57,433 nt of DNA from a virus (lineage: Duplodnaviria; Caudoviricetes), in IMG/VR virus record IMGVR_UViG_3300033145_001062, positions 1-57,433 of that record; one strand, 5' to 3'. The position numbers were made by a program, and so were the translations under genes. Position 1 is the stretch's first letter; every line of letters begins with the position of its first letter. Positions 1-13,389 of this stretch are shown here, in pieces. The notes below the pieces were generated by a model. It was not told the origin of the DNA. It searched no databases and worked only from the letters and a program-made list of their open reading frames with translations.

Positions 1-114
1 CTGAATATCTTATTTCTGTTATCTACAATCTGCTTCTCAAAATTAGATGTAATTTTAGTACAATTTTCTTTTTGATTTTTTATATCTGTTTTTATACTCC
101 CTATGTCGATTTTC
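1..114. repeat. Terminal direct repeat, left copy (circularity / assembly overlap)
   Basis: 1-114 is identical to 57320-57433. Confidence 0.97.
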
Positions 115-842: not shown

Positions 843-845
843 CTT

Positions 846-1391: not shown

Positions 1392-1406
1392 GTTGCCAAC
1401 ATAATC

Positions 1407-1435
1407 AAAATAAATGATGAGATCGGAAATGTCAA
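1407..1435 (-). promoter_or_regulatory. Possible sigma70 promoter for the endolysin
   Basis: TTGACA-17-TATTTT; weak -10. Confidence 0.35.
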
Positions 1436-1451
1436 GAAAAAGAAATGTAAC

Positions 1452-2147
1452 TTATTTTAGATATAACTGATTATTTTCAACATCTTGTCGGTAATCCGCA
1501 ATTTCTATGTGCTTTGTTAAATTACAATGCTGGCATAATATTTGTAAATTATCGAAATTATTAGATCCTCCCTTGGTAACTGGGATTATATGGTCGATAT
1601 GAAAATTATTTGAACAGGGTTTTTTATCCTTTTCGCATGTTATGACCCCGTACTTGAAGATATTGGCATTGATTACTCTATCTACGACACCCTTTTTGAC
1701 CGTGCCATAACTACGCCTTTTTAAATGGTTTTCCCTAACTTTTCCTGGATTTTTTAATTTATATTTTTTATCCCATTCTTTTCTTTTTCCTGGATTTTCA
1801 GCTTGATATTTTTTAATAACTGCTTTTGTTTTTTCCGGATATTCAGCATAATATTTTTTGCGTAGCGCTTTTAATCTTTCTGAATTTTCAGCATAATATT
1901 TTCTCATATATATTTTTATTTTTTCTTTATTTTCCAATCTATATTCTTCTCTTTTTCCTGGATTTTCCAATTTATATTTTTTATCCCATTCTTTTCTTTT
2001 TCCTGGATTTTCCAATTTATATTTTTTACTTAGCATTTTTATTCTCTCTGAATGTTCAATATAATATTTTTTATGATAGCATTCTCCACATAATCCTTTG
2101 GCATGATGTTCTTTGACTTCTTTACAGGCTTTACAAATTATCTTCAT
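1452..2147 (-). CDS. HNH homing endonuclease (paralog of 12599..13267)
   Basis: FHIDHIIP...GGSNNFDNLQILCQHCN motif; N-terminal CxxC/H/CxxC and Lys/Tyr-rich repeats. Confidence 0.9.
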   Translation of the reverse strand: MKIICKACKEVKEHHAKGLCGECYHKKYYIEHSERIKMLSKKYKLENPGKRKEWDKKYKLENPGKREEYRLENKEKIKIYMRKYYAENSERLKALRKKYYAEYPEKTKAVIKKYQAENPGKRKEWDKKYKLKNPGKVRENHLKRRSYGTVKKGVVDRVINANIFKYGVITCEKDKKPCSNNFHIDHIIPVTKGGSNNFDNLQILCQHCNLTKHIEIADYRQDVENNQLYLK

Positions 2148-2155
2148 AATTATTC

Positions 2156-2270
2156 TTAAATAAAAAAACCCCCTTTCGACAGTAGAGAATAAGCACTAAT
2201 GGAATGGCTTATCTGTTTACTCAGGGGTTTTCTTTTTTTAATTGGGTTTTCCATCAATACTTATTCTCTA
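2156..2270 (-). ncRNA. Structured leader / attenuator-like RNA E1
   Basis: 22-bp complementarity 2249-2270 with 2183-2204; all three mismatches are G-U on the minus strand. Competing stem 2224-2231 with 2165-2172, followed by a U-tract. Confidence 0.7.
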
Positions 2271-2275
2271 ATATA

Positions 2276-2304
2276 AGTATAACATTTTTTGTAAAATTTT
2301 TCAA
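2276..2304 (-). promoter_or_regulatory. Sigma70 promoter
   Basis: TTGAAA-17-TATACT with TG extended -10. Confidence 0.75.
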
Positions 2305-2342
2305 GCATAATCTCCCCCCGCCCATCCCACATGCTTAATTAC

Positions 2343-2684
2343 TTACTTTTTAGCCTTGTTGAATTCTGCTTTGAAAAGTATGCCCATAATTACAGTCAGC
2401 ACAGCGACAATAGCTTCAACTGGCAGTTCAAGCCCGAATGTTTCACTAACCGCTACAAGGATTGCTGATATAAACGCAATAATAAATTTCGGATCCTTAA
2501 ATTTCCCGATCTGTGATCCAATGCGTTTAATATCTGATTTAGCCTCAAATAGCACATAGCACAATATTGCTGTTACTCCGGCTAATACTGACATGCTGTC
2601 TAAGGTTAATCCGAACTGTTCACTGAAAAAAGCAAGTACCGTACCAATAACAGCAAGCACCGACATTAATGATTTTCTCGACAT
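2343..2684 (-). CDS. Putative holin with internal duplication, about 4 TM helices
   Basis: Two similar halves (SRKSLMSVLAV...FGLTL / DPKFIIAFISA...FGLEL); near the endolysin; AGGAGG SD. Confidence 0.7.
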   Translation of the reverse strand: MSRKSLMSVLAVIGTVLAFFSEQFGLTLDSMSVLAGVTAILCYVLFEAKSDIKRIGSQIGKFKDPKFIIAFISAILVAVSETFGLELPVEAIVAVLTVIMGILFKAEFNKAKK

Positions 2685-2730
2685 TTTAAACCTCCTAAAT
2701 TAAGATCAAAGCTCTTCGGATGTTGAATCA

Positions 2731-2919
2731 TTATTCTAATTCAGCCTCCCTCTTTTCTCTCTCTTTCTGTATATCCCAGTAATATTTCTCATCCTTAGCT
2801 TCCTCATAAGCCCTCTCCTCACAATTATCAGGGTCTAATCCCTTAGAGCAGGTCTCGTCATCAGTGAGATGTTCACATTGAATGCTGTGGCAATATTCAT
2901 ATTCTTTAGCTACTTTCAC
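2731..2919 (-). CDS. Hypothetical Cys-rich protein
   Basis: ORF track; start overlaps the upstream stop. Confidence 0.55.
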   Translation of the reverse strand: MKVAKEYEYCHSIQCEHLTDDETCSKGLDPDNCEERAYEEAKDEKYYWDIQKEREKREAELE

Positions 2920-3185
2920 TTTTTCCCCTCCATATCTTCAACACGTTCAAGAGCGACAACCCTAATCCCATCCGGAGTCATAGCCTCATGGCGCCAATAG
3001 CCATCATCTTTTAGAAATTTTATTGAGATATGCTTAAGTAAGTTTTCTTTCCCAAGCTCATGGAATTTATCATCCTCAATCTGGATTTGAATATTGCTTA
3101 TTCCTATAAGCCCCGAATCGCCATAAAGCTCCGCAAATTCCTTTTGTAATTTAGATACCTTTCTTAGAAACTCTTTGTTGGTCAT
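2916..3185 (-). CDS. Hypothetical protein
   Basis: ORF track; AAGGAGG SD. Confidence 0.65.
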   Translation of the reverse strand: MTNKEFLRKVSKLQKEFAELYGDSGLIGISNIQIQIEDDKFHELGKENLLKHISIKFLKDDGYWRHEAMTPDGIRVVALERVEDMEGKK

Positions 3186-3516
3186 TTTTTTTCCTCCTTT
3201 CTTTCAAATATTCATCCATAAGCCCTTTTAGAAAATCAAAGAGCAATTTAGCGCTTTCCTCAGCTTTGCCTTCAAATTTTAGAACACCGTCTTCCCAATC
3301 TAATTTTCCAATTTCCTCATTGTCTCTAAAAAACGTCATTTTATAAAGCTCGGTATCTTTAGGTGCTGTAGTAATCTGATTATGTCTGTTGGTCGTTTTT
3401 TCCTCCTTTTTTGTCTTTGGTGCTTCAATCTTAAAGGCATCCTTTTCTTTAACTGAAGCAACCTTCTTGTCGCCAATTAATAAATTTACTACTTTTCCAT
3501 CCTTTTTTTTAGGCAT
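3151..3516 (-). CDS. Hypothetical protein
   Basis: ORF track; AAGGAG SD. Confidence 0.65.
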   Translation of the reverse strand: MPKKKDGKVVNLLIGDKKVASVKEKDAFKIEAPKTKKEEKTTNRHNQITTAPKDTELYKMTFFRDNEEIGKLDWEDGVLKFEGKAEESAKLLFDFLKGLMDEYLKERRKKNDQQRVSKKGI

Positions 3517-3551
3517 TTTTTCTCTCCTTTTTTATTTAATTGATTTTTCCA

Positions 3552-3908
3552 TTAATAATGATGTTTTAATAGCTGGATATCTTCCTCTGCTTTCTCTAAT
3601 TTTTCCCAAATAAGATCGAATTTTTTCTCTAATTGTATGTGTGTGAAATTATGCAAATCTTTAAAATTTTCTAATTTCCTTAATCTTTCTTCTTCCTCAC
3701 GCATATTGCCTATATTCTCAACTTCCTCATCCTCAATTTTATTTATCTCCAAAAACCAGTTCCTCTCTTTTTTCCCGTGAAACTCTATTGTTTTTTTACA
3801 CCCACATGGTAAATTTATTGACCCTATATACGTATAATCTTCCGGTATATATGGGATTTTGTAATTCTTCTCATGCTTTTCACATCTTATCTCCATTGTA
3901 TAATACAT
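3552..3908 (-). CDS. Hypothetical protein
   Basis: ORF track; AAGGAG SD. Confidence 0.6.
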   Translation of the reverse strand: MYYTMEIRCEKHEKNYKIPYIPEDYTYIGSINLPCGCKKTIEFHGKKERNWFLEINKIEDEEVENIGNMREEEERLRKLENFKDLHNFTHIQLEKKFDLIWEKLEKAEEDIQLLKHHY

Positions 3909-4069
3909 TTTTTCTCCTTTCTTAATCTTTTATTTTCCTCGATTAATCTGGCATTTTCCGTCAATACAGAAAAAAGTAACCTCCTGATTTCCTTCTCTTT
4001 TTGCTCTAAGAGATAAAACGGGTCTTTATGTCTGCCCATTTTTTTCCTCGATTGATCCAGAAATTTCAA
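3887..4069 (-). CDS. Hypothetical protein
   Basis: ORF track. Confidence 0.5.
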   Translation of the reverse strand: MKFLDQSRKKMGRHKDPFYLLEQKEKEIRRLLFSVLTENARLIEENKRLRKEKKCIIQWR

Positions 4070-4253
4070 TGCTTTTTAGCATTCGTTCATCTAAAATATC
4101 CCTGATATCTAAGAGAACTTCAAGGATACTATTTCGTATTGCCGTGTTTTCAAATGGAGTAGTTGCCTCTATAGCCACCTTACTTCTCATTTTGACTTTT
4201 GACATTTTTTTCTCCTTTTTTTTAACTTTTGCGCTTATCATATTTACTTCCAA
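4026..4253 (-). CDS. Hypothetical protein (start probably later, at MSKVK)
   Basis: ORF track; AAGGAG SD before the internal Met. Confidence 0.5.
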   Translation of the reverse strand: MEVNMISAKVKKKEKKMSKVKMRSKVAIEATTPFENTAIRNSILEVLLDIRDILDERMLKSIEISGSIEEKNGQT

Positions 4254-4383
4254 TTAAGCCTCTTAAATCATCCCGTGCATCCTCAACGCTATACTCATTA
4301 TTGAGAATTTGCACTAGGTAAAATTTGGGATGTTCCCAGCAGTTATCTATGTCCTCTTCTGTAAAAAACTTTTTTTCATTCAT
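4222..4383 (-). CDS. Hypothetical 53-aa protein
   Basis: Hand translation MNEKKFFTEEDIDNCWEH...; ATGA overlap with the upstream gene. Confidence 0.55.
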   Translation of the reverse strand: MNEKKFFTEEDIDNCWEHPKFYLVQILNNEYSVEDARDDLRGLIGSKYDKRKS

Positions 4384-4661
4384 TTCATTTCCCCCTTGCT
4401 CAACTCAAGCTGTAGTTTCCGCAATTCCTGTTGCTCTAATTTTAACTGCTCAATGTAGATTATTAATTTCTGGGTTAAGCTGTCAATTACAACCTTGTCC
4501 TCGATAATCTCAGCAACCTGCTCTTTCAACTCAAGCTGATCGGTTCGAATCTCGCTATTGATTTGTAAACTCATAATAAATGAACCAACCGCCAGTCCAA
4601 TAATAAAGCCGATAATAAATATAATTGTATACCATATTTGGTCATGCTCTTTATTCGTCAT
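4380..4661 (-). CDS. Membrane-anchored coiled-coil protein
   Basis: N-terminal TM segment IIFIIGFIIGLAVGSF. Confidence 0.6.
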   Translation of the reverse strand: MTNKEHDQIWYTIIFIIGFIIGLAVGSFIMSLQINSEIRTDQLELKEQVAEIIEDKVVIDSLTQKLIIYIEQLKLEQQELRKLQLELSKGEMK

Positions 4662-5013
4662 TTCCTATTTCCTCCCTTAAATCGCCGTCTCTGAATGTAA
4701 ATGGAAAAAGCTCCAATTGTTCTACATCATCAGCAAGTTCAGGATGGGCATTACATACCCTTTTAAACCTCTCGAATAGTGGGATCGCCTTTTTCCTCAG
4801 ATAGTCCCGGTACTCCAGAATCTCCTCTTTCCTGACCGGATAGAACCCGCCTCTGTCGCAGGTTACAATAGGAAGTTGACTATAAATATTCCTAAATTCT
4901 CGATCTGAAATAATAAATGCAGGGACATGTTTCGACATAAACTTATCCCTGGTTATAGCATTCTCCCTACCCGAATGATGCTCTTTATAGAGCCTTAAAA
5001 TATATTCCTTCAT
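4651..5013 (-). CDS. Hypothetical protein, possibly winged-helix DNA-binding
   Basis: GRENAITR...SDREFR...PIV..GGFYP pattern typical of phage wHTH proteins. Confidence 0.5.
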   Translation of the reverse strand: MKEYILRLYKEHHSGRENAITRDKFMSKHVPAFIISDREFRNIYSQLPIVTCDRGGFYPVRKEEILEYRDYLRKKAIPLFERFKRVCNAHPELADDVEQLELFPFTFRDGDLREEIGNDE

Positions 5014-5014
5014 C

Positions 5015-5155
5015 CTATCTTCCCTTTAAAATCTTCAATTCCTTCCTAAGCCTTGCGATCTCTATTTCCAGATCGTACTTGCTACCTGATACAATTGCAG
5101 CATAAATAACCAATATAAAAAGCCCAACAGCTAAACCTCCTAAAAATTCAATCAT
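5015..5155 (-). CDS. Small membrane protein (46 aa)
   Basis: Hand translation MIEFLGGLAVGLFILVIYAAIVSG...; AGGAGG SD. Confidence 0.6.
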   Translation of the reverse strand: MIEFLGGLAVGLFILVIYAAIVSGSKYDLEIEIARLRKELKILKGR

Positions 5156-5178
5156 TTCATCCTCCTTTTTTATTTCAT

Positions 5179-6360
5179 TCATTTAGTCAACCTCATTAAT
5201 AATCTTCCCAGCCCCTGCATGTCCCGCCATCGCATAGCCGAGAAGTCATAATAATATCTATCCGGCATTGTATTGTGTATGCCATCTGGCAGTCGGATAT
5301 CATTCTGCCTATGTCCATTAAGCATTTCCATAAGTACAAGACCATCTATATGTGCTTGTTTTAGTAACGCCTTGGCGGTTGCAAGTGGGATAGGGACAGG
5401 TGCATATTGTCCATTCACTCGCCAGCCATCAGTTGAGATTCCGCTAAAATAAGGCATGAGTAGTGTTTTTTTATTGTAGCTTTTCAAATCCCCCACCTGG
5501 TGAATAACTGGAGTAAAATGCTGTCTCGTTCTGGGTGATATTTCAGCTTCAGTCGAGGTAAATCTTCTCCATCTGGGGCAATCCCGACCCCAGGTTTCAT
5601 CAATAATTTCTTTCATCCGCATATGCCAGGCTGTACCAGAATATCCCTCGTTACAGGTTTCGATACTGATATATTTTCTTTCCCTTGGGGACAAGGAATC
5701 ATAAATTCTATTGAGCATATATCGAGTCATGGCTTCTACGATTTTGCCTGTATTTTCCGCTCGAGGACTTCCAAGAGACCACTCTATATAAGCTTCATAA
5801 GCATTTGCGGCTGAAGAAGTTTCTATATTATTATTATCAGGATTAAGAAAATTTTTAGCCCAGGAACAGTTATTTCGATAATGGAATGCACAGCCATCTA
5901 TCAAGGAAATAATCAACATGATTTTCCTGTACACAACTTTTTGTATCCTGGATAACACGGCTGTTTCCCAGTTGGCATTAATATATTTTCCTATTTTTTC
6001 ATCAGCTTCATCGGGATCAGGCATAATAAATTTACCCTCATCATCCCTCACAAACGGTTCTAAATTCCATTTACAATATTCAGGGTGCCAACATTGAGAA
6101 AATAAGAATACTCTTGTGGTATTCCCCGCTTCCATTGTTACGTATTTATCCAGGATCATGTCTAAATCATAAATACGAGTAGTCCAGAGCATTTCAGGAA
6201 TAAATAGAGTTGCCAGGAAAAATGGTTTTCCTGTCTGTTTTTTAATTTCATATACTTGCAGTTCCTTTTTCACCTCTACAGGGATTACGGGGCTATAATT
6301 TGCCGGTGGTATGTTTATTTGTGCCATTATCAAACCTCCTATAAAAATTAGATTAAGCAT
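5179..6360 (-). CDS. Putative TIM-barrel glycoside-hydrolase-like protein (SD-supported start at 6327)
   Basis: GNTTRVF, ETCNEG and ISTDG motifs resemble clan GH-A-like proteins. The first 11 codons are the repeat micro-ORF. Confidence 0.5.
   Translation of the reverse strand: MLNLIFIGGLIMAQINIPPANYSPVIPVEVKKELQVYEIKKQTGKPFFLATLFIPEMLWTTRIYDLDMILDKYVTMEAGNTTRVFLFSQCWHPEYCKWNLEPFVRDDEGKFIMPDPDEADEKIGKYINANWETAVLSRIQKVVYRKIMLIISLIDGCAFHYRNNCSWAKNFLNPDNNNIETSSAANAYEAYIEWSLGSPRAENTGKIVEAMTRYMLNRIYDSLSPRERKYISIETCNEGYSGTAWHMRMKEIIDETWGRDCPRWRRFTSTEAEISPRTRQHFTPVIHQVGDLKSYNKKTLLMPYFSGISTDGWRVNGQYAPVPIPLATAKALLKQAHIDGLVLMEMLNGHRQNDIRLPDGIHNTMPDRYYYDFSAMRWRDMQGLGRLLMRLTK
6325..6360 (-). repeat. Linker repeat R1 (MLNLIFIGGLIM, in frame with the downstream gene)
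   Basis: ATGCTTAATCTAATTTTTATAGGAGGTTTGATAATG. Confidence 0.9.
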
Positions 6361-6637
6361 TTATTTTCATCTTTTTAAGCTTTTTCTCCCACCTATCTAA
6401 GCGTATAAGGCGTTCCCTTGTTATATCTTCCCTGAAATTTAAATCACTACAAATCCCTTCTTCAAATAATACCCATAAACAATCGGTGCAATCTTTATTT
6501 TCAGAAATAGCACAAAGGGGACAACCAAAACTATTAATTTCCCCATAATCACATGGTGTATCATCTGATTCATATTTTTCATAGTGCCTTCTTAATTCCT
6601 CAATAGCCTCAAGCCATTGTCCTATTTTTCTTTTCAT
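6353..6637 (-). CDS. Hypothetical Cys-rich cassette protein
   Basis: ORF track; bounded by R2 and R1. Confidence 0.7.
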   Translation of the reverse strand: MKRKIGQWLEAIEELRRHYEKYESDDTPCDYGEINSFGCPLCAISENKDCTDCLWVLFEEGICSDLNFREDITRERLIRLDRWEKKLKKMKINA

Positions 6638-6672
6638 TTACCCAAACCTTCTATAAAAATTAGGTTAAGCAT
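6634..6672 (-). repeat. Linker repeat R2 (micro-ORF MLNLIFIEGLGK*)
   Basis: ATGCTTAACCTAATTTTTATAGAAGGTTTGGGTAAATGA. Confidence 0.9.
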
Positions 6673-6784
6673 TTCGCTTACTTTTAACTCTCCTTGGTTT
6701 TCGTCCCACGCACAAACCAAAAACCCAGGGAGCGTATTTCCCCCAGCGTACATGCTCAAAAAGCCAAAAACATAAATTTCTCAT
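6665..6784 (-). CDS. 39-aa cassette protein
   Basis: Hand translation MRNLCFWLFEHVRWGKYAPW...KRNA*. TAATG coupling upstream; stop lies inside R2. Confidence 0.55.
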   Translation of the reverse strand: MRNLCFWLFEHVRWGKYAPWVFGLCVGRKPRRVKSKRNA

Positions 6785-7020
6785 TAGTATTCTTCGTAAA
6801 TAATTTGCTGAACATACGCACTGTTTATTCGTTGAGTCACAACTGTATGAAGACCTACTTCTGCTACTTTAAACCATACAACGGCAGCCATCTGACCATT
6901 TTCTTCATATGGAATTATCCTCATCTCTGGACAATTCTGTATCATAGTTCCATCGCCCAATACTAACATTTTAATTCTTCTTTCTTCAGACATTATTTTA
7001 GTGCTTTTTATTTCTCCCAT
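6784..7020 (-). CDS. Hypothetical cassette protein
   Basis: ORF track; start follows R3. Confidence 0.65.
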   Translation of the reverse strand: MGEIKSTKIMSEERRIKMLVLGDGTMIQNCPEMRIIPYEENGQMAAVVWFKVAEVGLHTVVTQRINSAYVQQIIYEEY

Positions 7021-7055
7021 CTAATTAGACCTCCTATAAAAATTATGTTAAGCAT
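7008..7055 (-). repeat. Linker repeat R3 (micro-ORF MLNIIFIGGLIRWEK*)
   Basis: ATGCTTAACATAATTTTTATAGGAGGTCTAATTAGATG. Confidence 0.9.
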
Positions 7056-7536
7056 TTGATTCTTTAACTCCAATAGACGCCCTGCATTTTGTTTTATACC
7101 TATATGCTCTAACGCTTATATTTTCAGGCGGATTCTGCCCTATCCGTCTAATGCAAGAAATAAGAATCATCATTTCTTTGGTTAAATCTGAAATAAAAAC
7201 CTCAGACTTTTTTACACACTGGACTTTCCCAGAATCTTTAAGAATTAATAACCCCCATTTTGGAGGTATTTCATCTATTGAGTTTACAACTCCTTCTGGC
7301 ATTAAATAATATCTATATTGACCTACTCCATCTTTAAGCATGCGCCTTGACCATTTATGTCTATCTGCAAAAAAATCCTGCCTATTTGTTTTACATTCTA
7401 TCAGTGTTGATACAAAACTTTTCCATCCAAAAACATCGGGTGTTTCCACAGCCCAGGTTGTCAACTCCGTTACGACTATATCACATTTTCCCCAAAGCCA
7501 CTTCTTGCCGATTTCAACTAATTCCCTATGAGTCAT
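7048..7536 (-). CDS. MmcB-like PD-(D/E)XK nuclease
   Basis: ETPDVFG...LIECKTNRQDF...YRYYLMP...WGLL. Confidence 0.7.
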   Translation of the reverse strand: MTHRELVEIGKKWLWGKCDIVVTELTTWAVETPDVFGWKSFVSTLIECKTNRQDFFADRHKWSRRMLKDGVGQYRYYLMPEGVVNSIDEIPPKWGLLILKDSGKVQCVKKSEVFISDLTKEMMILISCIRRIGQNPPENISVRAYRYKTKCRASIGVKESNA

Positions 7537-7571
7537 TTGACCAAACTCCCTATAAAGATTAGATTAAGCAT
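7533..7571 (-). repeat. Linker repeat R4 (micro-ORF MLNLIFIGSLVK*)
   Basis: ATGCTTAATCTAATCTTTATAGGGAGTTTGGTCAAATGA. Confidence 0.9.
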
Positions 7572-7727
7572 TTATTTAATCTTCACTCCGATTGATTTAA
7601 GCCAACTTTCGATATATCTAATTTCTCTTTCATATAATTCTACATTATCGCTTTCATCTTCTACGATAGTTATTAAATTATTATAAAAATCAAAAATATC
7701 TTTTTTTGTTATTTCGCATGTTTTCAT
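7572..7727 (-). CDS. 51-aa cassette protein
   Basis: Hand translation MKTCEITKKDIFDFYNN...GVKIK*; exactly fills the R5-R4 interval. Confidence 0.7.
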   Translation of the reverse strand: MKTCEITKKDIFDFYNNLITIVEDESDNVELYEREIRYIESWLKSIGVKIK

Positions 7728-7762
7728 TTCAACAGTCCTCCCATAAAAATTATGTTAAGCAT
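7724..7762 (-). repeat. Linker repeat R5 (micro-ORF MLNIIFMGGLLK*)
   Basis: ATGCTTAACATAATTTTTATGGGAGGACTGTTGAAATGA. Confidence 0.9.
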
Positions 7763-7927
7763 TTATTTTCTATCAGATGACTCAAATGGAGAACAAAATT
7801 CATCCAATAATTCCTTTAATGTATTCATGGCTTTAATTATATTTACTAATTTAACATCATTTATCTTATAGCGGTTCACTCCCCAATCTGCTAGGTCTTT
7901 AACTGTTATCTTTTTTTTTCTTTTCAT
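7763..7927 (-). CDS. 54-aa cassette protein
   Basis: Hand translation MKRKKKITVKDLADWGV...SSDRK*; exactly fills the R6-R5 interval. Confidence 0.7.
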   Translation of the reverse strand: MKRKKKITVKDLADWGVNRYKINDVKLVNIIKAMNTLKELLDEFCSPFESSDRK

Positions 7928-7962
7928 TTAATTAATTCTCCTATAAAAATTATGTTAAGCAT
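7924..7962 (-). repeat. Linker repeat R6 (micro-ORF MLNIIFIGELIK*)
   Basis: ATGCTTAACATAATTTTTATAGGAGAATTAATTAAATGA. Confidence 0.9.
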
Positions 7963-8147
7963 TTATGTTTTTTCTTCCCCCAGCTTGCTGGCGGCAACTC
8001 CCTATCAAGGGCATCCGTTATTCCCGAATATTCTTCTTCCATTAAGCTAATATTAATTATATCGTTTTTTAATTTCTTTGTAGGCTCTATTCCATGTCTC
8101 GGCAACATTTCATCCAGGCTATTTTCCCAATATTTTCGTGAATTCAT
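7950..8147 (-). CDS. Hypothetical cassette protein
   Basis: ORF track; stop lies inside R6. Confidence 0.65.
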   Translation of the reverse strand: MNSRKYWENSLDEMLPRHGIEPTKKLKNDIINISLMEEEYSGITDALDRELPPASWGKKKHKCLT

Positions 8148-8779
8148 TTAACCAAACCTCCCGCATAATATTTGTTCTTTCGTAAGTTATCTTTCGCCCA
8201 TAATGGTTGAAGATTATCTAATGCCCAACATTGTCGAAACTCTTTATCCTTATAAGAATCAAAATCAAAACTAAAAATGGGTCTAATATGGTCTATATGC
8301 CATTTTCCCTGATTATCCCAAGTCATCCCTTCTTTAAATTGTGATTCTAAGTGTTGTATTAAATTATCCAAGGTGTATCCAACTAATTTCTCCCAATGAT
8401 ATCCATTTTTATTTCTTTTTAGAGATTGTCGCATAAGGGTACTAATGGCATTACTTAGTTTATTTCTGGGATTTTTAAGAAATTCTTTATAACGGCTGTT
8501 GATTTCATCTCTATGGCGTTCTCGATAAGTTACTTGATATTGTTTCGCTTTCTTTGGATTATTTTCTCTCCATTTTTGATTTTTCTTATTAACTCGATCT
8601 GGATTGTCTTTGGCATATTTAATTACTCTTTGGATGATGTGTTCTTGATGCTTGAGATAATAGCTTCTCTTCTGCTCTTTGACTGCCTCTAGATTATCTA
8701 AACGATATTGCTTACATTGCTCATTCTCTTTTTTTTTATTCTTTAAATAACGTTTTCTTCTAGATTCTTTATTTTCCAT
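8144..8779 (-). CDS. HNH-type homing endonuclease
   Basis: WHIDHIRP...CWALDNLQPLWAKDNLRK. Confidence 0.85.
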   Translation of the reverse strand: MENKESRRKRYLKNKKKENEQCKQYRLDNLEAVKEQKRSYYLKHQEHIIQRVIKYAKDNPDRVNKKNQKWRENNPKKAKQYQVTYRERHRDEINSRYKEFLKNPRNKLSNAISTLMRQSLKRNKNGYHWEKLVGYTLDNLIQHLESQFKEGMTWDNQGKWHIDHIRPIFSFDFDSYKDKEFRQCWALDNLQPLWAKDNLRKNKYYAGGLVK

Positions 8780-9770
8780 TTAGCTGCCTCGCCATTTCAC
8801 CAGCATATTTTAGCATATCTCTATAGTCAAACGGATCGTCATTTTTCAAGCCCGGAAACATCGAAGAGTCCCTAAAGCCATAGTAGGTGACTGCTTGAAT
8901 GTCACATTTAAAAGCAAGATTCATAATCTGCTTAGTTCGGGCAAGGCTCATCCCGGAGCGAAAGGCAAAGAATTCATTGAAGACCACTGGTTTCCCCCTT
9001 CGCACATCTTCTCTGAATGAGGCTTCTTGCCAAGCTCGGTGATGGCTATTAATATCCAAGCCATTATATAGATTATGGAAATCAATTGATTGCCTCAATC
9101 CCTTGAGACCACTCCATGCCCCACCGCTTATAATGCAACCCTGGTGTTTTAACCATTTAGCTACATCTATAGCCATTTCTACATTCTTTGGTTCATCAAG
9201 AAATTCATTATTGATATCAAAAAATACATTACCCAACTTAGCCAGCTCTCCCATTTCATCTAATTCAACTAATAATCCCTTTGATTTTTTGTGTGCTCTA
9301 AACACAGTCACCTCAACTATAATTCCAGCATCTTTCATCCGCTTGCAATGGTTATAAAGAAGATTGGTATTCCTAATCCCTCCATGCCTGACATAGTTTA
9401 TGCCCGACTCTATAAGTTTATTTTCATACCACTCAAGGCTGTACTGCCCCCAGTCATATGGATAGCCATGTTCACCCGTTGCCCGCCATAGGGCTTCCCA
9501 GCGGGATACACCACAGAGCTTAATGGGGCTTCCGCCATATAATATCTTGCCATTCTCAACTGTAAGCTTTTTGTCGGGAGTGGGGTTGGGATCAGGTTCT
9601 CCCTTGCATTCCCTAAGGTCATCCTCACAATCTGTAAGACGTCTTCCGCATTCGTTAAGTTCTTCCTTACAGCTCTGATATTTGTTTCTCCATATATTCC
9701 TTAAATGTCGCATATCCAAATATTTCTCTTTCCATTCTAAAGCTCGTTTTTTCCACCACGCCTTCGTCAT
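8769..9770 (-). CDS. Coiled-coil plus GH-A/GH5-like domain protein (paralog of 23228..24163)
   Basis: SGINYVRHG, NVFFDINNEF and KPVVFNEF motifs; PDPNPTP linker. Confidence 0.6.
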   Translation of the reverse strand: MTKAWWKKRALEWKEKYLDMRHLRNIWRNKYQSCKEELNECGRRLTDCEDDLRECKGEPDPNPTPDKKLTVENGKILYGGSPIKLCGVSRWEALWRATGEHGYPYDWGQYSLEWYENKLIESGINYVRHGGIRNTNLLYNHCKRMKDAGIIVEVTVFRAHKKSKGLLVELDEMGELAKLGNVFFDINNEFLDEPKNVEMAIDVAKWLKHQGCIISGGAWSGLKGLRQSIDFHNLYNGLDINSHHRAWQEASFREDVRRGKPVVFNEFFAFRSGMSLARTKQIMNLAFKCDIQAVTYYGFRDSSMFPGLKNDDPFDYRDMLKYAGEMARQLNGK

Positions 9771-10225
9771 TTTACCCTCCTTTTGTTTTCCATATGTCTT
9801 TTAGTAATATTTTCTACTATTTCTATAAACCTACAATTACCAAACACATAGTGTCTATCGGTATAAATCCGGTCAATAGATGGTCGCACCATTTCAGAAG
9901 CGTTATCTCTGAGGTATAGAGTCCTAACCTCATCCTTTGTGAGCTTAAACTGTATACCTTTGCCACCGTAATATCTATAGTCTTTATTATTGGGATTATT
10001 ACAACGCTGTTCTGCAAGGTGATGATGATTTTCCCATGGATTCTCTGCACGATATTCTCTTATGTATACTTTTCTTTCTTCTTTATGGTCAGCGTTATAT
10101 TTTTTCTGCTTTTCCAATATCTCTTTTCTGTTGGCAATATACCATATTTTTTCCCGTTCCTTTATTTTCTTTCTGTTTTTAATGTAATATTTTCTATCGT
10201 ACTCTTTTTTTTCTGCTTTATTCAT
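9767..10225 (-). CDS. HNH-like endonuclease
   Basis: QRCNNPNNKDYRYYGGKGI...SIDRI...Y..GNCRF. Confidence 0.75.
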   Translation of the reverse strand: MNKAEKKEYDRKYYIKNRKKIKEREKIWYIANRKEILEKQKKYNADHKEERKVYIREYRAENPWENHHHLAEQRCNNPNNKDYRYYGGKGIQFKLTKDEVRTLYLRDNASEMVRPSIDRIYTDRHYVFGNCRFIEIVENITKRHMENKRRVK

Positions 10226-10272
10226 TTTATCCTTCTGTTATTTTAACGTTAGAAAATATAATAATCAGGATT

Positions 10273-10536
10273 TTATCTCCTCTTTTTTACTCGCCATGAC
10301 TCTACATAGCGCACACGTTTTTGCTCTAAATTATAATTCCAATATCTGTCTCCAAATACGAGTATTTTTATTCGTCCCCCATCCATTTCTTTAAGCGGTA
10401 TACAAGGCATCGTATATTCCAAACAATTATGCCCTAGACAATGCCTACAGCTTAGAATATGGGTACAATCCGTCCTTTTCCAATGTTCCTTATTCATCTT
10501 ATCCTCCTGTCGGAAATTCTTGTATAAGTTTCTCAC
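10273..10536 (-). CDS. Hypothetical protein (start probably MNKEH, near 10497)
   Basis: ORF track; AGGAGG SD before the internal Met. Confidence 0.6.
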   Translation of the reverse strand: MRNLYKNFRQEDKMNKEHWKRTDCTHILSCRHCLGHNCLEYTMPCIPLKEMDGGRIKILVFGDRYWNYNLEQKRVRYVESWRVKKRR

Positions 10537-11119
10537 CCCAGATTTCCTTGAGATTGTTTTTTAGGTGTATTTTCTTATGGCACTTTTTACATAATGTAAG
10601 CCCATTATTAACATCAAAAATTAATTCTAAATTTTTATTTTTGATGCAATCACTCACAAAAATAATATGATGGGCTTCCAGTATATTTCCTTTATAAAAT
10701 CCGCAATTTTGACAGATATAGCCGTCTCTCTTGAATACAGATTCACGCCACGATGCATATTTCTTTAAACCTCTTATTTTTATAATTAGGGCAGTAGTTC
10801 CACCCCTCCAACATGGATTATTTTTTCCATTTAGATTTTCAGTTTGCCACAAGCCTTTGCATTTTCTTGAACAAAATTTTTTATCCTTCTTGTGTGGTTC
10901 GGCTTGAAATTTTACCTTACAAAACAAACATTCTTTTTGTATCTTGCCACCTTTCCATGCGGGATTGTCTGCCCCTAACATTTTGCCTGTTTTCCCTTCA
11001 CTTATTTTTACTCCCCACGTAACCTTTCTTCCCTTTTTTATCCATGTATTTTTCCTTCCCTTTAAAGCTCTGCTCATTTTTTCTTTATGTTCTTGTGTTC
11101 TTACATAATATCCAGCCAT
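10499..11119 (-). CDS. HNH homing endonuclease with NUMOD3-like and Zn-finger N-terminus
   Basis: EHKEKMSRALKG, CLFC..FCSRKC, RDGYICQNCG..LEAHHI..NGLTLCKKCH. ATG at 11119 chosen over TTG at 11200. Confidence 0.85.
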   Translation of the reverse strand: MAGYYVRTQEHKEKMSRALKGRKNTWIKKGRKVTWGVKISEGKTGKMLGADNPAWKGGKIQKECLFCKVKFQAEPHKKDKKFCSRKCKGLWQTENLNGKNNPCWRGGTTALIIKIRGLKKYASWRESVFKRDGYICQNCGFYKGNILEAHHIIFVSDCIKNKNLELIFDVNNGLTLCKKCHKKIHLKNNLKEIWGEKLIQEFPTGG

Positions 11120-11124
11120 ATTAA

Positions 11125-11228
11125 AAATAAAACCCCCGTTCAGCAATGGATAGCACAAGGCAGAATTGACTTGCATGCCTAATAGGGGGTTTTTTCTCAA
11201 GCTAAATTTCCTACCATTATACTATCCA
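11125..11228 (-). ncRNA. Structured leader / attenuator-like RNA E2
   Basis: 11209-11228 pairs with 11147-11165 (G-U wobbles, one bulge). Competing stem 11185-11193 with 11129-11137 plus U-tract. Confidence 0.7.
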
Positions 11229-11233
11229 AATAT

Positions 11234-11262
11234 ATTATATAATTTCCATATCATATTGTCAA
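11234..11262 (-). promoter_or_regulatory. Consensus sigma70 promoter
   Basis: TTGACA-17-TATAAT. Confidence 0.88.
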
Positions 11263-11918
11263 TCTCTTGGCCATTCTTGTATCAAAGGGCCTAAAACTGG
11301 CCCCCATATTTTAGCTAAATTATTCTTTAAAAAAACCGGAATCCCTGCATTTTGGCAAAAGCCAACAATAGCCTTAATCCATTCTATTTGCGGGTCATAT
11401 TTCTTTCCGTAGCCGGATAATTTTCCAACGATCGCCCAATTAACACATTTTGGAATGCTCCATCCTGGCGGAAGTGGATTGCTAAATAGTGGTTCCCATG
11501 AAATGAATTTAATTTTAGCCTTTATCCTATGAAGATAACTCATCCTTTCTTGGTCACCCATGCCCGTAATACTCACCCCCAAATGCACATTATCCGGCAT
11601 AGGTCGGTCAATATTCTCAGGCATTTTAGTTAGGATTTGGAAGGTGTGTTGGGGAAAATCCTCCATTCTCTTAAATATCTTATCCCTCCAATCCTTTGGA
11701 ATCCAGCTCCCGAATAATTCATGGGTCGAGCAGAGAAATATCTTCCTGGGAGACTTTGGAAGCCTATCGAAAGCTGATAATTCAAGTCGAATAGGCTCAG
11801 ATAATCGCCCCATTTTATACATCGGAAGGGTATAGCAATACCAACATCCTCCCTTGCATTTACCCTTTATCGGATTACATGTTTTATCTGTCCAGCCAAT
11901 TGATTCTTTTAAGCTCAT
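11259..11918 (-). CDS. DUF5131 / phage Gp37-Gp68 family protein
   Basis: IGWTDKTCNP..C..GC.YCY, HTFQILTK, FISWEPL, GIPVFLK. Confidence 0.88.
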   Translation of the reverse strand: MSLKESIGWTDKTCNPIKGKCKGGCWYCYTLPMYKMGRLSEPIRLELSAFDRLPKSPRKIFLCSTHELFGSWIPKDWRDKIFKRMEDFPQHTFQILTKMPENIDRPMPDNVHLGVSITGMGDQERMSYLHRIKAKIKFISWEPLFSNPLPPGWSIPKCVNWAIVGKLSGYGKKYDPQIEWIKAIVGFCQNAGIPVFLKNNLAKIWGPVLGPLIQEWPRD

Positions 11919-11919
11919 T

Positions 11920-12096
11920 TTACCCTCCTATTATTTTCTCATATTTTAGCTTGATTGTTTTTTCCGGTACAAATTCAAGATTTAAACATTCCGCCATAGC
12001 CTCAAGCCGATTATATAAATCCTCCCTATCCCTTTCCAACTGGATTACCTGATTTTTTAAATTATCTATCATGTCTTCTAGCTCTGATTTTCTCAT
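11920..12096 (-). CDS. Hypothetical 58-aa coiled-coil protein
   Basis: Hand translation MRKSELEDMIDNLKNQ... Confidence 0.55.
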   Translation of the reverse strand: MRKSELEDMIDNLKNQVIQLERDREDLYNRLEAMAECLNLEFVPEKTIKLKYEKIIGG

Positions 12097-12105
12097 TTTA
12101 ATCCC

Positions 12106-12594
12106 TCATTTTTCTCTATCTTCGAATTCATTTATTCCCCAAGCTAAAATACAAACCGCATCCGCCTCGTCATCTGAAATTATCTCTCTCCCTGGACTTC
12201 TTTTCTGATTCTTAAATATTTTATTAGCAGCTTTTATCATATCTTTTTTACTTGCCTTACCTGAACCGGTTATAAATTTCTTTACCGCTCCGGAGTGGAC
12301 TTTCATATAATCTGTTTTTAATATACTGCATATTTCTTCTATCCTTGATGTTAGCCCGACTTGTATTTGAGTAGCAGCGCCACCCCTTAAATGGCTCATT
12401 TCATAAATTATCAAATCCGGTTTAATCCTTTTTATTATTCTATCTAACCAGGTCCGGAAATATAAATATCGCATCCCCGGACTCTCCCCCCGCCTTGTTC
12501 TAAATGTCTGTACTCCAGATTCAATGCGATTCATATCGTTAAAAAAAACAGCCCATCCTGTAGATAATCCTGGATCAATTGCGAATATTTTCAT
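12106..12594 (-). CDS. ruvC: RuvC-like Holliday junction resolvase
   Basis: AIDPG..TGWA, IIYE, VKKFITGSGKASK, DEADA. Confidence 0.9.
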   Translation of the reverse strand: MKIFAIDPGLSTGWAVFFNDMNRIESGVQTFRTRRGESPGMRYLYFRTWLDRIIKRIKPDLIIYEMSHLRGGAATQIQVGLTSRIEEICSILKTDYMKVHSGAVKKFITGSGKASKKDMIKAANKIFKNQKRSPGREIISDDEADAVCILAWGINEFEDREK

Positions 12595-12598
12595 TTAT

Positions 12599-13267: not shown

Positions 13268-13279
13268 AATTATCCCAAT

Positions 13280-13382: not shown

Positions 13383-13389
13383 TAATAAT

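What the first reader, a model, noticed from the sequence alone, without database searches (positions are those of the whole stretch)
6325..8165. Gene-cassette array joined by linkers that each encode a conserved 12-aa translational-coupling micro-ORF
Seen: six copies of ATGCTTAA(C/T)(A/C)TAAT(T/C)TTTAT(A/G)G... separate unrelated small genes. They translate to MLNLIFIGGLIM, MLNLIFIEGLGK*, MLNIIFIGGLIR(WEK*), MLNLIFIGSLVK*, MLNIIFMGGLLK* and MLNIIFIGELIK*. Divergence is largely synonymous or conservative: Leu10 is TTG/TTG/CTA/TTG/CTG/TTA, Asn3 is AAT/AAC, and position 4 is Leu/Ile. Each micro-ORF starts at or overlaps the upstream stop and carries an SD-like purine run for the next gene. In five of six copies the next ATG lies exactly 35 nt after the micro-ORF ATG, four of them as ATGA overlaps; R1 is fused in frame. 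Inference: this is a natural plug-and-play expression linker, analogous to synthetic bicistronic designs, that may also supply homology for cassette gain or loss (possibly via the Sak4-like protein). The hydrophobic peptides could also be functional. I know of no described system with this exact layout, but have not searched.
Basis: partly seen in the sequence, partly recalled or inferred. Interest (0 to 1): 0.9.

Follow-up and report, generated by a model that had tools for sequence, protein, structure and literature searches.

The report
Repeated stop-and-restart joints between phage genes
A phage has copied one short junction sequence, which ends one gene in any reading frame and carries the ribosome site for the next, in front of six unrelated genes; it marks where accessory genes were stacked, and it resembles junction repeats already described in other phages.

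Summary
Six minus-strand copies (first ATG at 6360, 6672, 7055, 7571, 7762, 7962) stand against 0.05 expected by chance. All translations and the 35/33-nt spacings are as reported.

The window is a complete 57.4-kb siphovirus-like genome. The element (E) has two halves:
- **5' block (~26 nt):** AU-rich and unstructured, with an ATG and TAA stops in all three frames. Upstream genes really end at different ones.
- **3' half:** Shine-Dalgarno, spacer and start. It matches "J", the conserved 3' end of the neighbouring 333-aa glycosidase-like gene family.

Relatives carry one E, before the conserved GH5-like 382-aa gene, and hold different small genes between J and E. The 162-aa gene's homology to a relative starts at the second ATG of one E and stops just before the next.

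Best reading (about 0.5): E is a portable gene joint that was multiplied as accessory genes were stacked by short-homology recombination. Selection for translating the 12-codon micro-ORF could be neither shown nor excluded (about 0.25). A sigma-70 promoter, a conserved RNA fold and a known RNA family were not found.

Closest known are cluster K mycobacteriophage SAS repeats and T4-type PeSLs. This scan has noted similar linker arrays in other phages. I rate it a new variant of a known kind.

The parts
7925..7964 (-). E copy R6. First ATG at 7962-7960; micro-ORF MLNIIFIGELIK*; ATGA overlap with the 54-aa gene's start at 7927. The upstream 65-aa gene stops at the element's third TAA (7950-7952).
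7725..7764 (-). E copy R5. First ATG at 7762; MLNIIFMGGLLK*; ATGA overlap with the 51-aa gene's start at 7727. The upstream 54-aa gene stops at the TAA directly 5' of the ATG (7763-7765).
7534..7573 (-). E copy R4. First ATG at 7571; MLNLIFIGSLVK*; ATGA overlap with the 162-aa gene's start at 7536. Its 3' half, GGGAGTTTGGTCAAATGA, is nearly the J junction of the relatives. The upstream 51-aa gene stops at the TAA directly 5' of the ATG.
7018..7057 (-). E copy R3. First ATG at 7055; the micro-ORF runs to 7008 (MLNIIFIGGLIRWEK*) and overlaps the 78-aa gene (start 7020) by 11 nt. The upstream 162-aa gene stops at the GCTTAA TAA (7048-7050) and so ends ..ESNA*.
6635..6674 (-). E copy R2. First ATG at 6672; MLNLIFIEGLGK*; weaker SD (GAAGG); ATGA overlap with the 94-aa gene's start at 6637. 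It shares 50 nt at 86% identity with R6, reaching into the first codons of the next gene.
6325..6362 (-). E copy R1. First ATG at 6360, 33 nt before and in frame with the start (6327) of the conserved 382-aa GH5-like gene. It is the only copy with counterparts at the same position in relatives (L001/L002, L017). The upstream 94-aa gene stops at GCTTAA (..KINA*).
8145..8169 (-). Junction J (ATTATGCGGGAGGTTTGGTTAAATG). It is the 3' end of the HNH gene (..YYAGGLVK*) plus the start of the 65-aa gene. In L001 and L017 the same sequence (24 of 26) ends the 333-aa gene homologue (..YAGSLVK*). It resembles the 3' half of E and has the same long SD-to-ATG distance.
7950..8147 (-). 65-aa gene, the first variable gene after J.
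   Evidence: no family
7763..7927 (-). 54-aa cassette gene.
   Evidence: no family
7572..7727 (-). 51-aa cassette gene.
   Evidence: weak phrog_38385, E 0.0014
7048..7536 (-). 162-aa cassette gene (phrog_631, E 4.8e-33; weaker hit to a 'DNA repair protein' PHROG). It has a homologue in L001 with other junctions. Homology begins at the second ATG of R4 and ends about 6 nt before R3.
6784..7020 (-). 78-aa cassette gene, a real small-protein family: 25 representative proteins at E<=1e-3, the best 70% identical.
6725..6746 (-). Terminator-like hairpin followed by a T-run, inside the 145-nt gap between the 78-aa gene and R2. The lowest-energy fold instead forms a longer alternative hairpin.
6353..6637 (-). 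94-aa Cys-rich cassette gene. The word-based search of 5.8 billion proteins returned only the protein itself.
5179..6327 (-). Conserved 382-aa gene downstream of the array. Predicted TIM barrel closest to GH5 glycosidases. Distant homologues carry an N-terminal membrane helix.
8144..8779 (-). HNH endonuclease-like gene (211 aa) lying between the 333-aa gene and J.
8769..9770 (-). 333-aa glycosidase-like gene, the left-hand conserved neighbour of the variable slot.

Best explanation
E is a portable gene joint on a polycistronic message, built from two parts.

1. A ~26-nt AU-rich, unstructured block, (A)AATGCTTAAYNTAATYTTTATRG. It carries TAA in all three frames, so the upstream gene ends whatever its frame.
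2. A J-type ribosome-binding site (GGAGG, a long T-rich spacer, ATG[A]) that starts the next gene.

Ancestrally there was one E, in front of the conserved GH5-like 382-aa gene. The slot between the 333-aa gene's end (J) and E holds a different small gene in each relative.

Inferred history: in this phage five more genes were stacked into the slot by short-homology crossovers between the J-like half of a resident E and the J junction of a co-infecting relative (X-E-GH crossed with 333-J-Y-E-GH gives X-E/J-Y-E-GH). Each event adds one gene and one E. The phage's own Sak4-like annealing protein may have catalysed this.

The 12-codon micro-ORF arises because an ATG-bearing block is fused, in register, to what is elsewhere the last five codons of a real gene. 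Ribosomes may well re-initiate on it, but I take that as incidental, or at most helpful, rather than the reason the element exists.

Shown: the anatomy, the use of all three stops, the presence of E and J in relatives, the variable slot content, and homology breakpoints at the edges of E. Inferred: the crossover mechanism, the role on mRNA, and the origin of the core.
For: - Six copies against 0.05 expected, with none elsewhere in 57 kb. E is therefore a local joint, not a genome-wide signal.
- Identity among 9 copies (6 from the window plus L001, L011, L017) is 29% at -60..-13, 42% at -12..-1, 89% at 0..25, 55% at 26..37 and 35% beyond.
- Upstream genes stop at three different TAAs of E, one per frame. 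R4 and R5 stop at the TAA before the ATG. R1 and R3 (and L001) stop at GCTTAA, giving ..NA*. R6 stops at ACATAA.
- J is conserved 24 of 26 in L001 and L017, although the tblastx hit between the genes it closes is only 36% identical.
- On the whole minus strand, the motif SD + TTTG.. + ATG occurs only at J, R4, R2, R1 and one unrelated site (5 hits).
- The GGAG-to-ATG distance is 14 in R3, R5, R6 and J and 13 in R4. It is 14 in only 7 of the 53 non-E genes with an upstream GGAG, a set that includes J (modes 10 and 12).
- Slot content differs in all three phages seen. The window has six genes, L001/L002 has an unrelated 65-aa gene, and L017 has a 49-aa gene.
- L011 has an E after an HNH gene and before yet another gene.
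- The 162-aa gene aligns with its L001 homologue from AAATGACTCA (second ATG of R4) to about 6 nt before R3, and the flanks are unrelated.
- No secondary structure: RNAalifold predicts 0 pairs for 9 copies, and single folds are weak with z between -1.75 and +1.27.
- Sak4-like and RuvC-like genes are present.
- Phage annealing recombinases work on short, diverged homology (abstract starts of PMC5499656 and PMC8093625; Discussion passage of PMC2839356 on patches under 50 bp).
Against: - Only one genome shows the array. No population or read data could be obtained, and the contigs of six closer relatives could not be fetched. No crossover has been observed; all are inferred.
- Recombination alone does not explain why the core is 24-25 of 26 identical between phages whose adjacent gene is only 65% identical in DNA. 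Some function of the core remains unidentified.
- Several features fit a translated relay ORF. The ATG is invariant in 9 of 9 DNA copies. The first-to-second ATG distance is exactly 35 nt in 6 of 6 copies not in front of the GH gene. By my hand count, about 10 stop triplets in the variable spacer all lie outside the micro-ORF frame (roughly p 0.02-0.06, and the copies are not independent).
- The terminator-like hairpin before R2 would fit E being a promoter there.
Confidence: 0.5

Rival explanations
1. Relay micro-ORF. Ribosomes finishing the upstream gene re-initiate at the element's ATG, translate 12 codons across the SD, and stop on the next gene's start (ATGA). This hands ribosomes on and keeps the site open, as in a synthetic bicistronic design, and this translation is what selection maintains.
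For: - The ATG is invariant in 9 of 9 DNA copies, and P0004 starts MPNIIFIGGLIM.
- Upstream stops lie from 3 nt before to 13 nt after the ATG in 5 of 6 window copies, in L001, and 3 nt before in L011. Reported coupling tolerates such spacings (passages of PMC12548453).
- The ORF is open in 9 of 9 copies, while the other two frames of the spacer often hold stops (hand count).
- The ATG-to-ATG distance is exactly 35 nt in 6 of 6 copies not in front of the GH gene, at an SD distance used by only 7 of 53 other genes.
- ATGA overlap occurs in 5 of those 6.
- The left edge of conservation lies 2 nt before the ATG.
Against: - No SD precedes the first ATG.
- The RBS region is already unstructured, so there is little to melt.
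- The downstream genes have their own strong SD.
- Substitutions show no codon periodicity (7:5:11, hand count). Synonymous sites of the core are nearly frozen: CTT and TTT in 9 of 9, ATA in 8 of 9.
- The open frame, the stop and the 35-nt length can all be inherited from J, where a real gene is read in the same frame.
- P0008 reads ..GYFTLIFIGVIIMAQ with no Met or stop at that place.
- In L017 the likely upstream gene ends 23 nt before the ATG.
Confidence: 0.25
2. Shared operator or processing site. The 26-nt core is bound on the mRNA (or DNA) by a phage or host factor, such as a translational repressor or an AU-specific endoribonuclease. This would co-regulate or separate the six cistrons right at their ribosome sites.
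For: - Nucleotide-level conservation exceeds that of the neighbouring coding sequence (24-25 of 26 against 65-75%).
- The four variable positions are fixed in place.
- The block is single-stranded and AU-rich, directly 5' of the SD.
- The authors of the SAS repeats proposed the same kind of role for them (passages of PMC3203893).
Against: - No candidate binding protein was found among 50 proteins scanned in Pfam and/or PHROGs.
- The element has no dyad symmetry (by eye).
- Relatives have only one copy, so a 'regulon' would be a single gene.
- No complementary partner of 10 nt or more lies on the transcribed strand.
Confidence: 0.12
3. Promoter. Each E is a transcription start signal, so every cassette is its own transcription unit, as with T4-type PeSLs or morons.
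For: - A terminator-like hairpin lies about 50 nt upstream of R2.
- The core contains CATAAT in 3 of 6 window copies.
- In T4-type phages, repeats flanking accessory genes are promoters (passages of PMC2839356).
Against: - In the sigma-70 scan of 1-20000, none of the 60 promoter-like sites listed lies on the minus strand between 4486 and 9566; 30 weaker sites were not shown. The same phage has perfect TTGACA-17-TATAAT sites elsewhere (11262).
- The would-be -10 has its key second base variable (A in 3 copies, C in 5, T in 1 of 9).
- Nothing is conserved where a -35 would lie (29-42% identity upstream).
- No phage RNA polymerase was seen among the proteins scanned, including the ten largest ORFs.
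- The element does not occur anywhere else in the genome.
Confidence: 0.06
4. Relic or alternative 5' coding end. The core is the start of a real gene. Either it is the first half of the N-terminal membrane anchor of the GH5-like protein, giving a long isoform from the first ATG and a short one from the second, or it is a collapsed small gene. The other five copies would be passive duplicates with no function of their own.
For: - Distant homologues P0013-P0017 begin with a membrane helix, and MAFFT places MLNLIFIGGLI over its first half.
- In front of the GH gene the element is in frame in 3 of 3 DNA copies and in P0004 and P0008.
- P0002 begins MIAQ, as if the second ATG were missing.
- Nearly the same letters open unrelated real genes: a P-loop gene in 9 Brachyspira genomes, and a gene whose product starts MLKIIFI and carries a CxxxCxxC motif in L037.
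Against: - Eleven residues are too short for an anchor.
- No SD serves the first ATG.
- Passive duplicates would not stay 89% identical while their flanks are at background, unless they are very recent.
- The alignment of short hydrophobic stretches is weak evidence.
Confidence: 0.1

Closest known systems
Start-associated sequences (SAS/ESAS) of cluster K mycobacteriophages (Pope et al. 2011, PMC3203893; passages read)
   Same: Both are short asymmetric repeats in one orientation that contain the SD core and sit a few bases before start codons of unrelated non-structural genes. In both, the upstream gene's stop codon sometimes lies inside the repeat. In both, conservation goes beyond what rRNA pairing explains and the function is unknown. 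A role in translation initiation or as a factor-binding site has been proposed for SAS.
   Different: SAS is a 13-bp GC-rich consensus (GGGATAGGAGCCC) present in 11-19 copies across the right half of the genome, and half the copies have 17-bp inverted repeats. E is about 40 nt and AU-rich, has no inverted repeat, carries an ATG and three-frame stops, and forms six copies within 1.8 kb (one copy in relatives). There is no sequence similarity.
PeSLs (promoter-early stem-loops) of T4-type phages (Arbiol et al. 2010, PMC2839356; abstract and passages read; PMC4122927 seen in the listing only)
   Same: Both are conserved short cassettes flanking accessory genes without known homologues in hyperplastic regions. 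Both act, or are proposed to act, as linkers for short-homology recombination that inserts, deletes or swaps single genes. Crossovers in PeSLs were mapped between the -10, SD and ATG.
   Different: PeSLs consist of a strong sigma-70 promoter plus a terminator stem-loop, and mini-circles were shown by inverse PCR. E shows neither a promoter nor a stem-loop, lies within an operon, and works, if at all, at the level of translation. No circles have been tested.
Synthetic bicistronic designs, and natural leader-peptide coupling (abstract starts of 10.1101/2023.02.09.527918 and PMC5995908; review PMC12548453, passages; the original BCD paper and the plasmid leader-peptide cases are recalled, not read)
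   Same: A short first cistron holds the SD of the second and ends on or next to its start codon.
   Different: A BCD leader has its own SD and promoter-proximal start. E's ATG has no SD and could only be reached by re-initiation. Translation of E's ORF is unproven. E also carries stops for the other two frames.
Conserved 'boundary' or linker sequences at mosaic joints of lambdoid phages, and the modular-evolution idea (recalled; discussed in PMC2839356)
   Same: Short conserved sequences at gene boundaries where homology between mosaic relatives starts and stops.
   Different: Those are single conserved joints between orthologous modules, not a tandem array of one joint within one genome.
Integron gene cassettes (attC sites)
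   Same: An array of unrelated promoterless small genes separated by a repeated site.
   Different: attC sites are imperfect inverted repeats that fold, and they need an integrase and an attI site. E has no fold, and no integrase family was hit among the 50 proteins scanned.

Membership tests
SAS (cluster K start-associated sequences) | Match to the 13-bp consensus GGGATAGGAGCCC with at most 2 deviations | tested here: not met
   E reads ..TTTATAGGAGGTTTG... Only the AGGAG core is shared. Consensus taken from PMC3203893.
SAS (cluster K start-associated sequences) | Contains the SD core, lies a few bases before the start codon, one orientation only | tested here: met
   All six copies are on the minus strand, with GGAG(G) 7-10 nt before the ATG.
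SAS (cluster K start-associated sequences) | 11-19 copies spread over the non-structural half of the genome | tested here: not met
   Six copies within 6325-7964 and none elsewhere. Relatives have one copy.
PeSL (T4-type promoter-early stem-loop) | Strong sigma-70-like promoter in the repeat | tested here: not met
   No promoter-like site at any E among the 60 sites listed (30 weaker not shown). No conserved -35 region.
PeSL (T4-type promoter-early stem-loop) | Stable stem-loop or terminator in the repeat | tested here: not met
   RNAalifold predicts 0 pairs. Single folds give -2.7 to -11.8 kcal/mol and are not significant.
PeSL (T4-type promoter-early stem-loop) | Flanks accessory genes in a variable region, with homology to relatives breaking at the repeat | tested here: met
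   Slot content differs in the window, L001 and L017.
PeSL (T4-type promoter-early stem-loop) | Recombination between copies gives mini-circles or deletions | not testable with these tools
   Needs inverse PCR or reads. No sequencing run could be listed.
Bicistronic-design-like coupling leader | Short leader ORF that contains the SD of the next gene and stops on or next to its start | tested here: met
   R2, R4, R5, R6 and L011 have the ATGA overlap. R3 has an 11-nt overlap. R1, L001 and L017 are fused in frame.
Bicistronic-design-like coupling leader | Leader ORF has its own ribosome-binding site or is otherwise translated | tested here: inconclusive
   No SD lies 5-10 nt before the first ATG in 8 of 9 copies (L011 has GAGG at about 8 nt; reading). 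Re-initiation after the nearby upstream stop is possible. No expression data are available.
Integron cassette array | attC-type foldable imperfect inverted repeat between genes | tested here: not met
Integron cassette array | Integron integrase next to the array | tested here: not met
   No recombinase or integrase family among the proteins flanking the array or among the other 40 scanned. Not every small ORF was scanned.
Any Rfam RNA family | Covariance-model match | tested here: not met
   0 matches at E<=1 in 5000-9000, both strands.

The most novel reading that the evidence does not exclude
E is a naturally evolved 'plug-and-play' expression adaptor. A universal three-frame stop block hands terminating ribosomes, through a 12-codon relay ORF kept in exact register (35 nt, ATGA), to the start of whatever gene lies downstream. 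Newly captured genes are then expressed independently of context. The same 40 nt serve as the homology patch by which the phage's annealing recombinase captures and stacks such genes. This would be a translational counterpart of PeSLs and integrons, and a natural precedent for synthetic bicistronic designs.
Probability: 0.22. Interest if true: 0.7.

Novelty: new variant of a known kind. Interest (0 to 1): 0.45.

Why it matters
Phage genomes are mosaics, and how single small genes get in and out without wrecking neighbouring expression is only partly understood. This locus shows gene-precise joints: homology to a relative begins at a start codon and ends just before a stop. Both sides of a variable slot are held by ~26-nt sequences (J and E) that are far better conserved than the genes around them.

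If E also standardises translation of whatever follows, it would be a compact natural part (stops in three frames, open leader, SD) of interest for operon engineering. For annotation, it warns that 12-codon ORFs and '..NA*' gene tails at such joints are by-products of the joint.

It adds an unstructured, ATG-bearing type to the hairpin-type linker repeats that this scan has noted in other phages.

Tried and rejected
- **Sigma-70 promoter:** none of the 60 listed promoter-like sites lies at any E (30 weaker sites were not shown). By eye, the only -10-like hexamer has its second base variable and no -35 is conserved.
- **T4 middle-promoter activator box:** a resemblance of the first bases of E to this box (recalled) was considered. 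I dropped it because the spacing to any -10-like hexamer is too short, and no T4-like regulator was seen among the proteins scanned.
- **IHF-type site (recalled consensus):** only 2 of 9 copies fit. Dropped.
- **Archaeal TATA box:** the spacing to the start codon is too short. Dropped.
- **Conserved RNA structure:** none. An apparent compensatory pair between R1 and R2 is not kept in the other seven copies (by eye).
- **Known RNA family:** none. **tRNA genes:** none.
- **Trans-acting antisense partner:** no complement of 10 nt or more on the transcribed strand. Hits on the other strand are the E copies themselves plus short partial matches at 39, 5317-5328 and 5798.
- **Extra degenerate copies:** none.
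- **Other linker families in relative L018:** none.
- **Paralogy among cassette genes:** none.
- **Cultured-phage relatives:** no match by blastn for the array, and none by tblastn for the 94-aa, 78-aa and 382-aa proteins.
- **More relatives in IMG/VR:** the exact E pattern gave 2 loci. Two looser patterns gave 8 and 19 loci; apart from L001 and L002, none had a tblastx hit to the window except L037 (weak hits to structural genes), where the match is the start of an unrelated gene. The J pattern gave the same 2 loci. A protein query gave 0 relatives and an alignment query gave the same 2 contigs.
- **Metagenome scan:** 9 loci. Two are real relatives (L011, L017). Seven have no homology and no SD after the match.
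- **Genome scan:** 9 loci, all the same gene start in Brachyspira. One independent site is about what my rough estimate gives for chance. A terminase query found nothing in 4 of those genomes, so no host link is claimed.
- **Sequencing runs:** none was listed and no RNA holder was listed.
- **dN/dS:** not computable on 12 codons. My substitution counts are hand counts, and the p-values are rough and ignore relatedness of the copies.
- **Supplementary files:** Figures 14 and 15 and the supplements of PMC3203893 could refine the SAS comparison.
- **Not in print:** the only searches that bear on whether such an ATG-bearing linker array has been described are. I therefore do not claim that it is unpublished.

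Full report
**What the window is.** The 57,433-base window is a complete virus record with a 114-bp terminal repeat. All sizeable ORFs lie on the minus strand. PHROG matches give:
- terminase, portal, two major-head-like proteins and a tape-measure protein;
- a Sak4-like annealing protein, a replication initiator, a RuvC-like resolvase and HNH endonucleases.

No RNA polymerase was seen among the ten largest proteins. G+C is 31-44%. No cultured phage is related at the loci I queried.

**The observation.** Shuffles give 0.05 on average, and 0 of 100 reach six. A profile built from nine copies finds nothing else in the genome: the six score E 2.6e-10 to 7.8e-9 and the next hit scores E 1.4. The micro-ORF translations, the 35-nt spacing (33 nt and in frame for R1) and the ATGA overlaps are as reported. 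The genes between copies are unrelated to one another.
- The 78-aa protein belongs to a real small-protein family, with 25 representative proteins at E<=1e-3.
- The 162-aa protein matches phrog_631.
- The 94-aa protein found only itself.

**Anatomy of the element (E).** I aligned nine copies: the six from the window plus L001, L011 and L017. Mean pairwise identity by segment is:

| Segment (relative to the first ATG) | Identity |
|---|---|
| -60 to -13 | 29% |
| -12 to -1 | 42% |
| 0 to 25 | 89% |
| 26 to 37 | 55% |
| beyond 37 | 35% |

The conserved block therefore begins two bases before the ATG and fades through the SD and spacer. It is AU-rich and unstructured. RNAalifold predicts no pair, single folds are weak and not significant, and no Rfam family matches.

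The block holds TAA in all three frames, and all three are used:
- The 51-aa and 54-aa genes end at the TAA just before the ATG.
- The 94-aa and 162-aa genes end at GCTTAA (tails ..KINA*..ESNA*). The L001 65-aa gene does the same (..YENA*).
- The 65-aa gene ends at ACATAA.

**The 3' half is not private to E.** The junction at 8145-8169 (J) reads ..GGGAGGTTTGGTTAAATGA, and there a real protein, the HNH endonuclease, ends ..YYAGGLVK* in the same frame as the micro-ORFs. In relatives L001 and L017 the same 26 nt (24 of 26 identical) close the homologue of the 333-aa glycosidase-like gene (..YAGSLVK*). The tblastx hit between those genes is only 36% identical. In the window the HNH gene sits between the 333-aa gene and J, as if it had been inserted into that gene's end.

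On the whole minus strand the motif 'SD, TTTG.., ATG' occurs only at J, R4, R2, R1 and one unrelated place. The GGAG-to-ATG distance of R3, R5, R6 and J is 14, and that of R4 is 13. This value is found in 7 of the 53 non-E genes with an upstream GGAG, a set that includes J; the modes are 10 and 12. So E is a private 5' block (ATG plus stops plus AU tract) joined to a J-type ribosome site. The C-terminal 'GGLVK*' of the micro-ORFs, their open frame and their ATGA stop can all be inherited from a normal gene end.

**Relatives.** Exact-pattern scans gave:
- two IMG/VR contigs (L001/L018 and L002/L019, near-identical at this locus);
- two metagenome contigs (L017, L011), among 9 loci of which the other 7 are chance hits.

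L001/L002 and L017 each show one E at the same place as R1, before the homologue of the 382-aa gene, again 33 nt upstream and in frame. L011 has an E (MLNLIFIGELVK*, ATGA) after an HNH gene and before a different gene.

Between J and E the three phages hold different genes. The window holds six genes with five internal E copies. L001 holds an unrelated 65-aa gene. L017 holds a 49-aa gene. The 162-aa gene has a homologue in L001 at another position with other junctions. The alignment is good from AAATGACTCA (second ATG of R4) to about 6 nt before R3 and unrelated outside. So E copies sit exactly at mosaic breakpoints. L018 has no repeat family of its own.

**Conservation of the core.** Between the window, L001 and L017 the first 26 nt of E are 25/26, 24/26 and 25/26 identical. 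The adjacent 382-aa gene is 65%, 65% and 75% identical in DNA, and only 50-59% of codons for identical residues are the same. The core is therefore held at the nucleotide level, or it is kept uniform by frequent exchange.

My hand count of substitution states by micro-ORF codon position is 7:5:11, which is not significant. Two patterns do hint at an open-frame constraint:
- About ten stop triplets in the variable spacers all lie outside the micro-ORF frame.
- The ATG-to-ATG distance is 35 nt in 6 of 6 copies not in front of the GH gene.

Both are also expected if the spacers descend from J-type gene ends. P0004 begins MPNIIFIGGLIM. P0008 (518 aa) reads from a YopX-like ORF straight through ..GYFTLIFIGVIIMAQ.., with neither Met nor stop.

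**The conserved neighbour.** The 382-aa protein folds confidently (pLDDT 86.6) as a TIM barrel closest to GH5 glycosidases (best Foldseek E 2.2e-7, TM 0.53). It has 16 homologues. The five most distant start with a membrane helix, and MAFFT lays MLNLIFIGGLI over the first half of that helix. Nearly the same letters also open unrelated genes: a P-loop gene in nine Brachyspira genomes, and a gene in L037 whose product starts MLKIIFI and carries a CxxxCxxC motif. I take these matches as chance, but they show that the core looks like an ordinary 5' coding end. The core may therefore be a relic of one.

**What it most likely is.** The phage uses canonical sigma-70 promoters elsewhere, for example a perfect site at 11262. 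No promoter-like site is listed on the minus strand between 4486 and 9566, so the array is read as part of a longer message. One terminator-like hairpin lies at 6725-6746, before R2.

I read E as a portable joint. It ends the upstream ORF in any frame, provides an open AU-rich leader, and starts the next gene from a strong J-type site. The array is most simply made by crossovers between the J-like half of a resident E and the J of a co-infecting relative. Each such event adds one gene and one E, and gives exactly the observed E-5'/J-3' hybrids with the J spacing. Phage annealing recombinases act on short, diverged homology (abstract starts; passage).

Rivals, with my weights:

| Reading | Weight |
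|---|---|
| Portable joint (best) | 0.5 |
| Relay micro-ORF as the selected function | 0.25 |
| Shared operator or RNase site | 0.12 |
| Relic 5' coding end, or dual start of the GH gene | 0.1 |
| Promoter | 0.06 |

A functional hydrophobic peptide seems least likely. The last third of the 'peptide' is dictated by the SD and by J, and it varies (G/S/E/V at residue 9).

**Comparison with known systems.** The closest are the SAS repeats of cluster K mycobacteriophages: asymmetric, containing the SD, placed before starts of unrelated non-structural genes, with stops sometimes inside, and of unknown function. Next are the PeSLs of T4-type phages, which are linkers for modular shuffling of accessory genes. 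E fails the defining features of both, since it has no consensus match, no promoter and no stem-loop. I therefore do not file it as a member of either family. It works like them in position and probably in evolution. It resembles a bicistronic design in layout only.

This scan has noted repeated stop-to-start linkers in other phages. Those were mostly hairpins. This one is unstructured and carries an ATG.

**Limits.**
- There is one genome with the array, four related contigs, no reads and no RNA data.
- The small p-values are rough and ignore shared descent.

Noticed in passing
window 6640-6784 (minus strand): The only long non-coding gap in the array. It has a terminator-like hairpin plus T-run (6746-6725), and the lowest-energy fold instead forms a long competing hairpin (CTCCCTGGGTTTTTGG pairing with GAAAACCAAGGAGAG). 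This may be an attenuator. A 39-aa ORF (6665-6784) overlaps it and is doubtful.
   Followed up: partly
window 8144-8779 and 8769-9770; L001 4287-5216; L017 3316-4059: The HNH gene appears to be inserted into the 3' end of the 333-aa glycosidase-like gene. Relatives' homologues end ..YAGSLVK* at J. In the window the 333-aa protein ends ..YAGEMARQLNGK*, and the HNH protein carries the old tail ..YYAGGLVK*.
   Followed up: partly
window 5179-6327: The 382-aa protein is a confident TIM barrel closest to GH5 glycosidases. It has no Pfam or PHROG hit. Distant homologues carry an N-terminal membrane helix and a proline-rich linker. A 55-aa membrane protein gene follows (5015-5182). It may be a lysis or depolymerase enzyme.
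   Followed up: partly
protein P0008 (metagenome, DNA not seen): A 518-aa predicted protein in which a YopX-like ORF (PF09643) runs through the E-like stretch, without a stop, into the GH5-like protein. It could be a fusion, a read-through or a sequencing error.
   Followed up: no
L020-L028 (nine Brachyspira genomes); L037: Twenty-five letters of E are identical to the first codons of a P-loop gene (MLNIIFIGAPGVGKGTQ..) conserved across Brachyspira. A similar stretch opens a gene whose product starts MLKIIFI and carries a CxxxCxxC motif in L037. I judged both to be chance. No terminase match was found in 4 of the Brachyspira genomes.
   Followed up: partly
window 1730-2135 and 12940-13190: Two paralogous HNH genes (1452-2147 and 12599-13297) contain runs of 45-nt (15-codon) tandem repeats. 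The L011 HNH gene is a homologue.
   Followed up: no
L001 3590-3626: Upstream of the 159-aa gene, inside the end of the preceding ORF (..EIVIYLVEGDK*), the stretch TAATCTATTTAG..GGGGGATAAATGA weakly resembles E (TAATCTAATCTTTATAGGGAG..AAATGA). It could be a decayed copy or chance. The nhmmer profile search listed no hit there.
   Followed up: partly
window 16726-16757, 20641-20672, 22800-22831: A second small family of three similar ribosome-site regions (32 nt, 75-78% identity) lies in front of other genes.
   Followed up: no
window 7537-7565 (plus strand): A promoter-like site (TTGACC, 17-nt spacer, TAGATT) on the strand opposite R4. It is not conserved opposite the other copies.
   Followed up: partly
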